DNA from: Carcharhinus longimanus
Lineage: Eukaryota
Assembly (NCBI GenBank): GCA_030264375.1
Contig: JASCQW010000027.1
Coordinates: 79,128,815 to 79,192,814 of the forward strand
Length of the DNA stretch: 64,000 bases
Direction of reading: 5' to 3'
Every line of letters begins with the position of its first letter. Within the stretch, counting starts at the first letter, position 1. Positions 57,491 to 64,000 of this stretch are shown one piece after another. The notes beneath the pieces were generated by a model that was given only the letters and a program-made list of their open reading frames with translations, was not told the DNA's origin and did not search any database. Both the position numbers and the translations under genes were made by a program.

Positions 57491-57757
57491 CCTCCAGTCA
57501 TTATCCATCTAAGAAAGTAAGATACATCCCAGACTGTAAGACTGAGGTGCTAAAATGTTATTTTAAAATAAAGAGGATAGTTGCAGAGTAAAGTTAATAT
57601 AAATATGCACTCAGTGGAAGAGAGATGCGGAGCCAAATGTGTTAAATTCAATTATTCAAAATCCATCTGTTGAAAACGAGAAATGTTCAATTTAAATTGT
57701 TGGCTTATACTTCCACATTGTTAAAGGATATAATTAAGGATGAAAAGGCACATCTCC

Positions 57758-57781
57758 TGCAGAAAACACAACAGGTTTATT
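57758..57781 (-). terminator. Polyadenylation signal and probable cleavage site of PUM2
   Basis: AATAAA (tttatt on + at 57776-57781), a CA about 18 nt downstream (57758-57759), then a GU/U-rich stretch. Confidence 0.7.
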
Positions 57782-58081
57782 TCATATGTTATTCACATTT
57801 TTTTCTTTTTTATACAGCATATACAATTAAATGAACATAACATTACTCCATCTTAATTGCCAGGGAGCCAGGTGGCAGACCTGATTAAACACAAGATAAA
57901 ATGGTCCATCAACAATCCATGTTAGAAGAAATATCAGTAAAATGCCTAGTGGTTTTGTTCCATTTGTTATCAACGTTATATTTAAATTTCTTGATCTGCA
58001 TTTTCACCCAGACCCCTGCTTTCCAAGCTAAAACCAGAGAACAATCGCACAAAGTGACTTCCTTCACACAACAAATAAATA

Positions 58082-58095
58082 GTTGCCATGGAAAC
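58082..58095. promoter_or_regulatory. RFX X-box-like palindrome
   Basis: GTTGCCATGGAAAC. Confidence 0.5.
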
Positions 58096-58882
58096 TAGGG
58101 CTGTGCCAAAACAAACCTACTGGCTTTCTGAACACAGTAGGCCCAACAGCCAGTCATTTAAACATGGCCAACATGCTCTTTCCCGATGATGTACTTTTTG
58201 CAGCTCTTGGAAGAGATAAGTACTGCAAAGCAATTTGAAAGTTCGCAAGCGAAGTGCCATAGTACAGCTTAACTACGTCAGATTGGAAAATCTAAACGTT
58301 GTAACAGAAAAAAAGGACTGCACAAATTAATAGTATAAAATAATTACAAAATATTACAGCTTCAACATCGAATAATTTAATTCACTGATGCTTTAGTTCA
58401 TTTTTTTAAAATCTGACTGCACAGCCCTAATGAAAACAACTTTTTATCTTTTCAGTGCTAAGGACATCACATCCAAAGGCCTCAAGATAAATAATTCCAG
58501 ATTGTTCCAAATCCACAAACTATTCTGTTAATACAAAATACTGACTTTCAAGGATCATCAAAATACAAAGCACAATCTTATATCTTTCAGAAACTGAATA
58601 TACAAAGCATATTTCAAAATATTTCCAGAGGCAAAGAATACAAATAACTATTAATTATACACATATGGTCACAATTCTGCCTGCAAAATGTCATCAGGAA
58701 ATGTACACAAGGCCTCCTGTAAAATGTACATCATCTATGTGTAGTGTTACAACCTTATGTTCAAATGAAAAATTGACAATATCATACATACTTCCACTTA
58801 CATGTAGGTAGACAATTCCAAAATACAGTACTCTTCTGTACAAAAAAATCATGCCACTTTTAAAAGATGGAAAGAACATTTG

Positions 58883-58896
58883 GTTTCCATGGTAAC
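58883..58896. promoter_or_regulatory. RFX X-box-like palindrome
   Basis: GTTTCCATGGTAAC. Confidence 0.5.
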
Positions 58897-59677
58897 TAGA
58901 TGTTTTAGTTCAAACTTTTCAATTTGACTACGAACAACTTGTACAACATTACACTTGTAAAATTTTCAAAAATTACCATATTAACAGAATTTCAACAGCT
59001 GCGATTATAAACAGAACCTACTGTCCTAATAGAATAAAAGAAAGCAAGTTTAATTTGTAAGCCATATAAAGATACAATTCTTAAAAAATCTTGATTCAAA
59101 GAAATTTACATTATACAACACTATGCTAGGGCAGAGGAGTGAGTTAGTGAATATACACTAAAATGCAAACTTTGTTTTCTGAAGGGTAAAAGACATTTTA
59201 ACATTTACAGCATCAGGTTTACAAATGTACAACTGTACAACCAAACTATGCAGTACTAAGATGGCCAAGCATATGGTTAAACACTAAAACAATAAATTTC
59301 ATTTTTTCAAACTGTAAACTTACACCTATAAATTGCAAAGTCTACACGTATACACTACATATTTATAAGTAAAACAAAGTCTATTTCATTAGTTTTTGCA
59401 TGCGTTACGGTGAGCTACCAAGCTTACCAGTCAATGGCCCCTTAATTTTCAAATCTGCCCAAGATTGCCAAATCTTTAAATTGAGAAAGTAAAAATAAAT
59501 CCACCACACCCTCATAAACATTCTTAATTTAGATACTGAAAAATACAAATCCCCTCATCTCTTTGCAAAATAGACTGAAAAGCCAAATCTAGCAAAAAAA
59601 ACTTTTCAGACAATTTGTATATTTAGGTATGTGTACCATCATGATTCCTTACTGCCCCCTTNNNNNNNNNNCATATG

Positions 59678-59685
59678 TATGTACA
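59678..59685 (-). promoter_or_regulatory. Perfect Pumilio response element (UGUACAUA) in the PUM2 3'UTR
   Basis: tatgtaca on + strand; matches UGUAHAUA. Confidence 0.65.
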
Positions 59686-60377
59686 GTACTTCTATACATC
59701 ACTGAAATAGAAAAGCAGGGCAGTGTTTATCTCAAAAAATAAAACCTATTGAGTATTGACATCTCCGTAGTAAACATCAGGAGTTACATTACATATCAGC
59801 CTGTAATTTAAGCCTTCCCTGAATTACATATTTCAACAGACCATAACTGTTGTGCTATTTAAATATTGTTGTCAAAAAGTAACTTGCTGAAACACAACTT
59901 AACTTTATACAGGTTCTGTTTTTTGACTAATTTAATATTTTTCTCCATCATAAAATTTAATCTATTGGGCCTGAGAACTACATTATGCAGCAAGTATCTA
60001 AAATGATTAGAATTTAAAAGTTGTGAATATACTACTTGAAACTCTTCTAATAATTTTGCAAGGTTTAATTTACAAAACACACAAAAGTTATTTTGATGCT
60101 ATTACATTAAGTTCATATATTCTGTGTTTTACCTAGGCTTTTCAATAAATCTCCAACAAAAGTACTTTAAGGAGAAACAAAACGCACACAAATTCAGGGC
60201 ACATTTAGGATTTGAAGTAGAGTTGACTGGTAAAACACACAATTCACAATTAATGGAAGAAAAAATAGGGGATGCAATAATTACAAGTTAAGTTGTGTTT
60301 AAAGTCTCTCTGCTTTGGCACACTCAATATTTAAGTAGAACAGTTTTCAGAAGTTCTTCTGTGTGCATCACTTCAAT

Positions 60378-60509
60378 TTACAACATTCCATTTGGTGGTC
60401 CTCCAATTGACCCCAGGTCAGTGCTGTTCTTCATGTAATACTTTTCCAGTTTGGCTAAGATGTGTTTTCCATAAGTGTATTTCCTAAGGGTTGTAATATG
60501 AGGTCGAAT
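60378..60509 (-). CDS. PUM2: PUM2 terminal coding exon
   Basis: tgtatatag|ATT start. Encodes [46 protein letters not shown] at 60378-60380. The C-terminal GGPPNGML matches PUM2. Confidence 0.97.
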
Positions 60510-61018
60510 CTATATACAATCAAAAAACATACAACATTTAACAAAAATCTTTTAAATCAGCTCAAGCATTTCATGGTTGCAATTTTTATAATGGATCAGT
60601 GCCCACCATAAGTTCAAGTGTCTTTATTTCCCCCTTTTGTTAATTTTATCAGAAATTTGGCTATAAGTTAATACTTGCATATTTTTAACCAAGATTAGTA
60701 AATGGAAATTAACATAATCCACCATAAGGAAGTAAAATACAGAGTTAGAAAAGAGAGGGAGTTTTTAGCCTTTGAAGATCTTTCGTGATCTGTAAAACTT
60801 GTTCATTCTAATGGAATGGTACATACATTTGAACACAATTACATCTTCAAATAAAAAGCTACATGATTTAAATTGCAGTCTCCTTGCCCAAGCAGCAGTA
60901 ACAAAATAATCAACCCCTTACGGTAACAGCACTGAATGTGTATCTTTGCTACTTTAACCATTTCATCTTGCACATTACAATGCATTCAAAGTTATGCAAA
61001 AATATCAGTAAAATTTAC

Positions 61019-61211
61019 CTTATGCATGATAATTTTACGTTGAGCAGGTTCTGCTACATCAATCATTTTCTGAACCACATAGTTGGCATATTGATCTTTC
61101 ATCATTGTATATAAGGCACTGTGGGGGCCATCATTCTGGCAGCAGATTTCATCAATCAGTAACGCACGTTCAGCACGAGAGGCATGGGTGACGCACTTTT
61201 CAACAACATTG
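61019..61211 (-). CDS. PUM2: PUM2 coding exon
   Basis: 193 nt, ttttttaag|C...AAG|gtaaat; phase matches the upstream exon. Encodes [64 protein letters not shown]; CCQNDG is PUM2-diagnostic. Confidence 0.97.
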
Positions 61212-61548
61212 CTTAAAAAAATGCACAGTACAAGTCTAATCAGTATCCTAAGCTGAATTAATTTTATATTCAAATTTTATGGCTTGCAGATTAAGAAAAC
61301 AAGTCAGAAAAAAAATCTAACTTAAATGGTGGCGGGAAAGGGAGAATCTTCAATGACAGACCTAAGAAACACTTGCAATATTTCACTGTACTAAGGTTGT
61401 TTTTATGTTTACTATAACATTAACTCTGATCGTATGTATATGTTCAAATATTTGGTTCAAGGACACTTATTCAATTAAGCACAAATTCAATAAAAAAAAG
61501 GAACATTTTTCAGGTATTTACATTATCTAGTACTGAAGCACATTTTTA

Positions 61549-61692
<144 letters not shown>

Positions 61693-62916
61693 CTAATTAA
61701 ACAAAGAAAATTAAATCTTAGAAATAAAATTTAGATAAACTTTCTCATACTAGTTGTTTTTTTAAATATAAATTTGTTTATTATTTGTGCATTAGTACAT
61801 GTTGTACATGTACAAATCAGAGGACATCATTCTACTACCATATAGGTCATTGGTTAGACCGCATCTCAAGCATTGAGGCTAGTTTTTCATGATACATTGG
61901 CCTTGGAAAAGGTTAAAAGGAGAGCTACAAGAAAGATTCCTAGCTTTAAGACTCTGATCGCTTTAAAATAGTCATCCAGTTATTTCAGAACAGCATAGTC
62001 TTAGAAGTGACCTGATAAGTATACAAAATAATAAATGGCTAAAATGGATATCTATTAGATTGAGAAGGACCAAGAAACACATTTAAGCTATACAAGTGTA
62101 GGAATAGACTAGATGGATAGGTAACTCTCCTATTCTCAGAGTCTCAGAAAGGTATTGGCTTATTTTCTGTGTTAACTATGTATGCCTTCAAGATGGAGCT
62201 GAACCCATTCATTGTCGCAAACGTAAGTGGAATAACAGGTAATATTCATGCGGTCAATGGGATCTCCAAAAGCAGTTTTGAATGCCTTTAGAAGTCAGAG
62301 AGAAATATTCCAGAGGTTGTTTTTCTAAATCCAAGTCTTTTTTTTCTGTTTAACACTTGCAAGAGTTAGGACTTTATGTCTAATCACGATATTCCAGATC
62401 TTTTCCTGCCCGTCATTTTCACTTATTTGGAAAATAATTTTTGGAATGGATTTACAAGAGTTGTGTGACCAAGTACACTTAAAATCTGAAATTTTCATTT
62501 GTCGAAATTAAATTCATTTCCAATATATAGCAGAAAGCTTTACATGCAATATTTTAGGATGCATGTAAAGAACATTCTTCCTTATTTTTGTCATTTCTTT
62601 AATCTTCTCCCAATTCCTTTGTTTCTTCCTCAGAATTTTACTTCACAATTTGATTATATTCATATCCACGCTTTGCATTTTTTTATTTATTTAGAAAACC
62701 AAACTGTGCATTTCATTTTTGCATTCCTCCAGTTATTAGAGTGCGGAGCCCAGTAGTGAGTAAGCGGAAACTGTCCAGAGTTTAAAATGTAAATGGATAT
62801 ATACTAGTGCCACAAGTGCACTTCCAAATCAAAACAAATGAAGTTTGCGAGTCATTACTGATCATCTGCTTTAAGTATTGTATATAGCATACTTTCCTTT
62901 TTTTAAAATTACTTAC

Positions 62917-62960
62917 TTTGTTTCTTAAAAGATGACTGGCATCATGTCACGGTGAGTACT
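62917..62960 (-). other. Candidate 44-nt PUM2 poison (PTC) cassette exon
   Basis: Branch-like TTAAT at about -28, ctgtctgcttacctgtgcag acceptor, GTAAGT donor, in-frame TAA at 62925-62927. Confidence 0.4.
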
Positions 62961-63463
62961 CTGCACAGGTAAGCAGACAGTTTGCAATTAAAGACAATGG
63001 ATGTATGATGTCGGTGGTGATTATAAGTAGTGCATGTTATGTTAGAAAGTGCAAAACACTAGTTTCCCTTTCCTAAATACAGATGTGTCCAGTATCCTGT
63101 ATATATCATAATTCAAATGGCACAAGTCCTATAAAGTACTCATACACCTATAAATAAGGCCATGGGTTTGCTGCTTATAAAATGGATAAATTATTAAAGA
63201 ACATGATCATCAGAATTGACTAAAAACCACCAAGAAAAAGCCTGGAAAAATTAGAATAGAATTTAACTTATTTTGCCATCATTAACCAGTGATTCTAAAT
63301 GGACAGAATTGTAGAATGTGATCTCAAAACACTAGTGAGGATCTCAGAATCCCATGTAAAAGAAAAATAATTTGATTATTTTGTCTGCTCCTCTATAATG
63401 AAAGGTATAGATTTGAATGGATTCATGCATCTTGTATGCTAATATGTTATCTGCTCTCCTTAC

Positions 63464-63589
63464 CTGTACTAATTGCTCAGTGTGCTGATGCAATTCCTCT
63501 AAGATCGGAAGAGTCTGCTCAGGTGTGCAGTGCTCCAAGATACGCTGAATGACTCGACAACCATAAGGATGAGTTGACAACACAAAGAC
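63464..63589 (-). CDS. PUM2: Pumilio homolog 2, internal coding exon (PUM-HD repeat region); gene continues beyond the window
   Basis: 126 nt, phase 0/0, ttattttctag|...cag|gtaagg. Encodes [47 protein letters not shown] and EHCT are PUM2-type (PUM1 has VFALS and EHCL). Confidence 0.96.
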
Positions 63590-64000
63590 CTAGAAAATAA
63601 TTATCAGTTGCTGAGGAAACAAGACTTTGCTGTTAGAAAAAAAACACAAGAATTTTACAAAATTAAAAACAGTTTTAAAGATAGGAAAAATAAATCCTGT
63701 ACAGTATTAATGCAGGGATACAATGATGAAAGATCATTGACCTGATATGTTAATGCGTCACCTCAGAATTGGGCCCTTTATTTTTTACTGCTTCTCCTCA
63801 TACTTCTTACCAAATGCACCACTTCATACTTCTCTACATTCAACTTTAACTGTCACATATCTGTCAATTCCACCAGCTTGTCTTGTATTAATCACTATAC
63901 TCTGCATAGTTCATAAGTTTGGTGCCATCTTAAATTGTTCCCTCTATATCCATGTCTAGGTCATTAAAAGAGATCAAGAAAAGTAGTGGTTTTAGCACCA

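What the first reader, a model, noticed from the sequence alone, without database searches (positions are those of the whole stretch)
62911..62995. Candidate poison exon in a PUM2 PUF-domain intron
Seen: on the gene strand, ctTTAATtgcaaactgtctgcttacctgtgCAG|AGTACTCACCGTGACATGATGCCAGTCATCTTTTAAGAAACAAA|GTAAGT. This has a branch-like motif at -28, an acceptor, a 44-nt exon (62917-62960) and a full intronic donor consensus. After the phase-0 upstream exon it reads STHRDMMPVIF-stop, with three junctions downstream, and using the AG 2 nt later also hits a stop (TGA). Known: many RNA-binding-protein genes are regulated by NMD-coupled poison exons, and PUM dosage is tightly controlled. Inference: a splicing/NMD dosage control truncating the PUM-HD. 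The pyrimidine tract and exonic donor bases (AAA) are only moderate.
Basis: partly seen in the sequence, partly recalled or inferred. Interest (0 to 1): 0.7.

Follow-up and report, generated by a model that had tools for sequence, protein, structure and literature searches.

The report
RNA helix hides PUM2 splice donor
A conserved stretch inside a PUM2 intron carries an extra splice donor that is used in transcripts of two organisms, and it is predicted to base-pair with the end of the previous exon and hide that exon's normal donor, which would likely divert some PUM2 transcripts into a stop-containing dead end.

Summary
The motifs are at the stated coordinates, and the element is real. The donor at 62917 is spliced to the next PUM2 exon in contigs of 2 of 8 runs laid (two organisms, two studies). 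A 176-nt block differs from organism D at 1 position, against about 9-13% in its flanks. The 44-nt cassette itself is not supported: the junction 63464>62960 appears in 0 of 8 runs, 6 runs bridge that acceptor unspliced, and both spliced forms keep intron upstream of it. The weak 'polypyrimidine tract' is the strand that pairs with the donor. Best reading: a long-range helix hides the normal donor, and splicing shifts to 62917, adding 547 nt with a stop. Every route through 62917 (30 of 30 acceptors, or none) gives a premature stop, so the dosage idea survives in another form. The helix, NMD and regulation are untested. Rivals: a structure-silenced poison cassette, or an ADAR editing partner.

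The parts
63464..63589 (-). PUM2 coding exon (PUF repeat 5), phase 0 at its 3' end
   Evidence: canonical joint 63464>61692 in X1, X2, X3
63451..63504 (-). 5' arm of the predicted long-range helix: last 41 nt of the exon, its donor and intron +1 to +13
   Evidence: 44 pairs at p>0.5, 36 at p>0.9
63458..63466 (-). canonical donor; positions -3 to +5 predicted paired (unpaired probability at most 0.01)
62917..63463 (-). 547-nt intron segment kept when donor 62917 is used without an internal acceptor
   Evidence: X1 contig spliced at 62917 runs on to 63391; X9 contig 62916-63427; X2 contig crosses 63463/63464 unspliced
63344..63346 (-). first in-frame stop of the extended form, 427 nt upstream of the 62917 junction
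62879..63054 (-). conserved block, 1 difference in 176 nt to organism D (limits set after seeing the differences)
   Evidence: X10, X11 span it; X14 to 63054; flanks
62923..62980 (-). 3' arm of the predicted helix; includes the proposed pyrimidine tract and 27 paired positions inside the proposed 44-nt exon
   Evidence: (longest inverted repeat in 60300-64000)
   Evidence: junction 63464>62960 in 0 of 8 runs
62911..62919 (-). alternative donor, 6 nt past the end of the helix arm; used in RNA
   Evidence: joint 62917>61692 with GT..AG ends in X1 (organism A) and X9 (organism D)
61571..61692 (-). next PUM2 coding exon; acceptor shared by both donors

Best explanation
The element carries a second splice donor (62917) that is spliced to the next PUM2 exon, and it is predicted to be the 3' arm of a long-range pre-mRNA helix that pairs with the end of the upstream exon and hides that exon's normal donor, likely diverting a minority of transcripts to the second donor and so into a stop-containing product that would be degraded or held in the nucleus. 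Shown: donor use, conservation, complementarity, and a stop on every route through 62917. Predicted: the 44-pair helix between 63504-63451 and 62923-62980. Inferred: the normal donor is made about 480 nt before the pairing arm, so early U1 binding usually wins (canonical joint about ten times deeper in X1, a crude figure). When the helix forms first, 62917 is the strongest donor left in the intron, and the exon grows by 547 nt with a stop 117 nt in. This would lower PUM2 output, and the switch would be sensitive to elongation speed, helicases or dsRNA-binding proteins. The spliced product cannot be rescued: splicing onward to the AG re-created at the new joint loses one base, and all 30 internal acceptors give stops.
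For:: joint 62917>61692 in X1 (depth 5.1, against 50.4 for the canonical joint) and in X9 (8.4, against 4.06 for the unspliced contig beside it); upstream intron kept in both; 1 difference in 176 nt to organism D, against 33 in 373 nt and 24 in 182 nt on either side (Fisher p about 3e-6, which used 23 for the second figure; limits chosen afterwards). Organism C has no change in 62946-62980; donor-only duplex -26.7 kcal/mol, the best site in the intron, 0 of 500 shuffled introns as good; exon end plus donor -50.8 against -31.5+-3.3, 0 of 300; exon part alone -25.2, 2 of 1000; synonymous recodings 16 of 1000 as good; paralog exon end only -27.5; 8 other PUM2/PUM1 donors z from -2.1 to +1.1, against -5.1 here; the same pairs in 3 of 3 fold windows (661-1201 nt); blocking the 5' arm costs 26-31 kcal/mol of ensemble energy. 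The helix also explains the two donor-like motifs on the + strand.
Against: The helix is computed only, and no covariation could be tested. The single change in the 3' arm (62944, organism D) turns a predicted A-U pair into an A-C mismatch if the exon side is unchanged (-48.4 against -50.8); D's exon side was not seen. The 661-nt region as a whole folds no better than shuffles (z -0.22), nor does the block alone (z +0.29). Donor 62917 is not clearly freed: it is predicted mostly paired at +1 to +6 in one window, and its partner changes with the window. The joint was seen in only 2 of 8 runs, with 29 and 28 letters on the short side; X2, X10, X11 and X14 cross the donor unspliced. Much of the intron is covered in X1-X3 at similar low depth, so the kept segment could be an intermediate rather than a product. 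No single contig runs from the upstream exon through to the downstream exon. The conserved block is wider than the helix arm. The PUM1-like paralog has no such element. NMD was not tested.
Confidence: 0.5

Rival explanations
1. Poison cassette exon. The 44- or 42-nt exon, or a longer one from a stronger acceptor such as 63241 or 63392, is included at a low rate. The contigs show the intermediate with only the downstream intron removed, and the finished form is degraded.
For: Branch-like A, AG and donor are all unchanged in organism D. Conservation extends 94 nt upstream of the acceptor and 38 nt downstream of the donor, as around alternative exons (recalled pattern). The stop is intact in D. 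Poison exons controlled by RNA structure are known in BRD2 and BRD3 (PMC10789245, abstract).
Against: Junction 63464>62960 in 0 of 8 runs, with 6 bridging the acceptor unspliced. The acceptor ranks 6th of 92. Positions -13 to -3 of the acceptor and the upstream donor are predicted to pair with each other.
Confidence: 0.2
2. Exon complementary sequence for ADAR. The helix exists mainly to make exon adenosines editable, for example 63486 (middle of a Gln codon) or 63465 (Gln codon, donor position -2), and use of donor 62917 is a side effect of hiding the normal donor.
For: The shape matches an ECS: a long imperfect exon-intron duplex with a conserved intronic arm (PMC4053846, passages). In organism D the partner of 63486 is C; that A-C mismatches favour editing is recalled. 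7 of 10 paired exon adenosines would recode.
Against: The spliced exon contigs of X1, X2 and X3 have 0 differences in 63463-63591, so there is no majority editing there. No PUM1 or PUM2 entry in the searched supplements of a human recoding catalogue (files 4 and 5 not searched) or of a zebrafish editing paper (1 file). The known conserved PUM2 site is in the 3'UTR. It does not explain why a strong donor is kept.
Confidence: 0.2
3. A DNA-level conserved non-coding element (for example an enhancer), with donor use as splicing noise and the helix accidental.
For: The block is wider than the helix arm. The joint is seen in only 2 of 8 runs.
Against: Complementarity to the adjacent exon end far exceeds the shuffles and 8 control donors. 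The same joint occurs in two organisms about 7% apart in this intron.
Confidence: 0.07
4. An exon of an antisense transcript on the + strand, suggested by donor-like motifs near 62952 and 62969.
For: Two donor-like motifs and an AG near 62932 on the + strand.
Against: All 3 splice-type joints have minus-strand ends, and none were found. A + strand look-alike of the exon end and donor is what an inverted complement of them produces.
Confidence: 0.03

Closest known systems
SMN2 intron 7 ISTL1 (long-distance helix over a 5' splice site; PMC9283826, passages)
   Same: An intronic strand hundreds of nt downstream pairs with part of the donor and inhibits it (279 nt there, about 470 here).
   Different: ISTL1 is 8 bp and causes exon skipping. 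Here about 44 predicted pairs cover 41 nt of coding exon and the donor from -3 to +5, and the observed outcome is use of a downstream donor next to the pairing arm. ISTL1 is proven by compensatory mutation; this helix is not.
BRD2 exon 3b and BRD3 exon 5b, structure-controlled unproductive splicing (PMC10789245, abstract)
   Same: Conserved intronic complementarity tied to a stop-generating splice event, not shared in position between paralogs.
   Different: In BRD2 both arms lie in the introns flanking a cassette. Here one arm is coding exon plus donor, and no cassette inclusion was seen.
Exon complementary sequences of ADAR targets such as the glutamate receptors (PMC4053846, passages)
   Same: A long imperfect exon-intron duplex with a strongly conserved intronic arm.
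   Different: No editing was seen here in 3 of 3 spliced exon contigs, and the arm ends 6 nt before a used alternative donor.
Fungal nmt1 TPP riboswitch, pairing that occludes an alternative 5' splice site (PMC7404189, passages)
   Same: Base pairing chooses between two donors and sets gene output.
   Different: No aptamer: no Rfam match in 60300-64000 at E<=1 (which covered 57500-64000 and found one chance-level hit elsewhere).
Decoy exons in retained introns (recalled; a search for PUM2 with this term found 0 papers)
   Same: A conserved cryptic donor inside an intron that is partly retained.
   Different: Here the donor is productively spliced to the next exon, and a helix over the normal donor gives a direct route to retention.

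Membership tests
NMD-coupled poison cassette exon | 3' junction (donor to next exon) used in RNA | tested here: met
   2 of 4 runs; 0 of 4, on a stretch without the downstream exon
NMD-coupled poison cassette exon | 5' junction (upstream exon to acceptor 62960) used in RNA | tested here: inconclusive
   0 of 8 runs, 6 bridge it unspliced; contigs drop rare forms, so absence is not proven
NMD-coupled poison cassette exon | premature stop more than 50-55 nt upstream of a later junction | tested here: met
NMD-coupled poison cassette exon | conservation above intron background | tested here: met
   essentially one informative organism (D)
NMD-coupled poison cassette exon | rises when NMD is blocked | not testable with these tools
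   no such library was served
Long-range RNA structure masking a 5' splice site | complementarity to the donor beyond chance | tested here: met
Long-range RNA structure masking a 5' splice site | compensatory changes across species | tested here: inconclusive
   one change in the 3' arm, which breaks a predicted pair; partner base in that organism unseen
Long-range RNA structure masking a 5' splice site | splicing changes on disruption and is rescued by compensatory mutation | not testable with these tools
   needs a minigene
ADAR exon complementary sequence | long exon-intron duplex with conserved intronic arm | tested here: met
   predicted duplex; conservation
ADAR exon complementary sequence | A-to-G differences between RNA and DNA in the duplex | tested here: inconclusive
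   none in the exon contigs of X1-X3 or in the 3' arm of X6, X10, X11, X14; contigs show majority letters only

The most novel reading that the evidence does not exclude
An editing-tuned splice switch in PUM2. ADAR binds the exon-intron helix and edits the adenosine at donor position -2 and a Gln codon that sits opposite C in one lineage. It thereby sets how often the normal donor is hidden and transcripts are discarded through the donor at 62917, and it recodes the Pumilio domain in the transcripts that survive. This would couple dsRNA editing to dosage and sequence of a Pumilio protein.
Probability: 0.12. Interest if true: 0.8.

Novelty: new member of a known kind. Interest (0 to 1): 0.55.

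Why it matters
Pumilio dosage is tightly controlled (recalled). The PUM2 controls I found in print lie at the 5' end or in the 3'UTR (10.1101/464404, passages; PMC4053846), none in the PUF-coding introns. If the helix is real, PUM2 in this lineage has a cis-acting off-switch made of RNA structure, with exact arms that can be mutated and rescued in a minigene. It also shows how a donor-masking strand can be misread as the pyrimidine tract of a poison exon, which matters for catalogues of cryptic exons built from motifs and conservation.

Tried and rejected
No listed holder is on record as RNA; the runs used are guesses, though spliced joints show that X1, X2, X3 and X9 contain RNA. X6, X10, X11 and X14 were laid on a stretch without flanking exons, so that is not shown for them. 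I laid 8 of the 22 listed runs and no DNA run. Using X9's 82%-identical exon contig as an orthologue baseline was rejected: 19 of 23 listed differences checked match the genome's own PUM1-like paralog. A shared element in the paralog's 8.9-kb intron was not found by blastn or duplex scan (z -0.9). Autoregulation through a Pumilio site: no TGTA(A/C/T)ATA in the intron. Recursive splicing was rejected: there is no AG-GT at the site, and the AG formed at the new joint shifts the frame. Rfam: nothing in the element. A second genomic copy: 1 match only. Two control rows had misplaced donors and were redone. One search used a wrong 3' end for exon 61211 (fixed); the stops cited lie upstream of it. 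Literature: 10 searches showed no report of this event in their listings or in the papers opened; most listed papers were seen as listings only. PUM2 appears only as a regulator, 9 of 9 times, in the human cryptic-exon table of PMC11632617. All 11 PUM2 rows in supplements 2 and 3 of PMC8052449 lie near the gene's 5' end, but these are subsets, not the full pair catalogue. Supplements of PMC10573301 could not be read and bioRxiv supplements are closed; either could bear on prior knowledge. Three look-ups of earlier findings returned nothing. X3 and X6 contigs stop at 62947 and 62946 without loose ends; unexplained.

Full report
Observation. The host gene is PUM2: exon 61019-61210 matches solved PUM2 domains better than PUM1 (129.4 against 118.4 bits for the best stretch), and a PUM1-like paralog lies on contig C146. 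The intron follows the exon for repeat 5. The 44-nt and 42-nt forms both end in a stop. With recalled frequency matrices, 62917 is the best cryptic donor in the intron, but 62960 is only the 6th of 92 acceptors. In 29,986 nt of upstream sequence, 9 donors score as well and 4 of them have an equally good acceptor 30-200 nt before them; I did not separate true exons from these.

RNA evidence. Of 22 listed runs I laid 8, all assembled contigs. The joint 62917>61692 is present in X1 (organism A, depth 5.1, against 50.4 for the canonical joint) and X9 (organism D, 8.4), from two studies, with splice-type ends and 29 and 28 letters on the short side. The canonical joint has similarly short sides in X1 and X2. 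The upstream joint 63464>62960 is in 0 of 8 runs. X1, X2, X9, X10, X11 and X14 bridge 62960 unspliced; X3 and X6 stop 14-15 nt past it. In X1 the spliced contig continues through the intron to 63391. In X9 the adjoining contig reaches 63427, and an X2 contig crosses the normal donor unspliced. So the donor is used while the 5' part of the intron stays. One search used a short stretch without flanking exons, where a junction would show only as a loose end or a break; none was found. Contigs cannot show absence, level, or whether the form is final or an intermediate.

Consequence. Keeping all 547 nt gives a stop at 63346-63344, 427 nt before the new junction. Each of the 30 AG dinucleotides in the segment, if used as an acceptor, also gives a stop within 38 codons. 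Any use of 62917 is therefore unproductive by sequence. That NMD acts on it follows from the usual exon-junction rule (established knowledge) and was not tested.

Conservation. Organism D differs at one position (62944) in 62879-63054, against 33 in the next 373 nt and 24 in the previous 182 nt, plus gaps. Elsewhere in the intron only two short patches of X9 aligned at 82%. Fisher p is about 3e-6, inflated because I set the limits after seeing the data. Organism C differs at 63038 and 63057 in 62946-63150. No orthologous coding baseline was available: X9's exon contig is the paralog. The paralog has no similar element. Human was not tested.

The helix. The element shows donor-like motifs on the + strand, which means donor complements on the pre-mRNA. 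The proposed pyrimidine tract is the complement of the upstream donor: -26.7 kcal/mol, the best site in the intron, 0 of 500 shuffled introns as good. Folding extends this to a helix between 63504-63451 and 62923-62980, with 44 pairs at p>0.5 and 36 at p>0.9, the same in 3 of 3 windows. It is the longest inverted repeat in 60300-64000. Exon end plus donor gives -50.8 against -31.5+-3.3 (0 of 300); the exon part alone is also unusual (2 of 1000); 16 of 1000 synonymous recodings do as well; the paralog's exon end gives -27.5. Eight other PUM donors give z from -2.1 to +1.1. I noticed the match by eye before testing it, so these controls are after the fact. Against it: the region as a whole is not unusually stable; the only change in the 3' arm breaks a predicted pair; and the pairing state of donor 62917 depends on the window.

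Mechanism. Most likely (0.5) the helix hides the normal donor in a minority of transcripts, the spliceosome takes the strong donor 6 nt past the helix, and the product is lost. Shown: donor use, retention of the 5' segment, conservation, complementarity, stops. Predicted: the helix. Inferred: that the helix causes the switch, the kinetic race with U1, NMD, and a role in dosage. The cassette model (0.2) keeps the helix as a silencer and treats the contigs as intermediates. The ADAR model (0.2) rests on the ECS-like shape and on the A-C mismatch at a Gln codon in organism D, but no edited letter was seen in 3 of 3 exon contigs. These readings are not exclusive.

Comparison with what is known. 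It works like SMN2 ISTL1 (PMC9283826, passages) and like the structure-controlled unproductive splicing of BRD2 and BRD3 (PMC10789245, abstract), and it is shaped like an ADAR ECS (PMC4053846, passages). PMC7404189 (passages) gives the nmt1 riboswitch and ADAR-masking precedents. On PUM2 itself I read passages of 10.1101/464404 (a 5'UTR exon), 10.1101/2021.11.24.469558 (a PUM2 exon event described as affecting protein domains, position not given in the passages seen), 10.1101/2021.11.24.469911 and 10.1101/288159 (UTR editing) and PMC11333368 (one mention). I searched supplements of PMC11632617 (abstract also seen), PMC8052449, PMC8897444 and PMC8096273. None describes this event. Ten searches of an open-access library are not proof that it is unpublished.

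Verdict. A real, conserved, used unproductive donor in PUM2, probably not the 44-nt cassette proposed, tied to a strong predicted exon-intron helix over the normal donor. New member of a known kind; interest 0.55.

Noticed in passing
window 63718-63736 and 61092-61110: A second exon-intron complement in the same gene: 19 of 19 nt between the intron before the repeat-5 exon and a coding exon 2.6 kb downstream (blastn E 1.5e-4 in 36.7 kb, duplex -37.0 kcal/mol). The intronic side has one match in the genome and is itself a short hairpin, which lowers its information. Conservation not tested.
   Followed up: partly
window 62946-62947: Contigs of X3 and X6 (two studies, two organisms) stop here with no loose end and no splice motif; unexplained.
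   Followed up: no
window 63391-63392: The spliced X1 contig ends one base short of a candidate acceptor that scores better than 62960; may be coincidence.
   Followed up: no
window 63562-63700 and beyond: A 3,892-nt contig of X1 runs from the repeat-5 exon into the intron before it at depth 9.4, so that intron is also well represented in the run.
   Followed up: no
window 62886-62897: This conserved segment just past the alternative donor pairs with exon 63519-63507, with 63052-63044 or with 62806-62795 depending on the fold window; a possible competing structure.
   Followed up: partly
G000:C146:7431000-7449500 (L007, L008): PUM1-like paralog with the same exon boundaries; its matching intron is about 8.9 kb and lacks the element.
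   Followed up: yes
window 59678-59685: One Pumilio-site match in the stretch after the stop codon, three with a looser pattern; a short N gap lies just below it.
   Followed up: no
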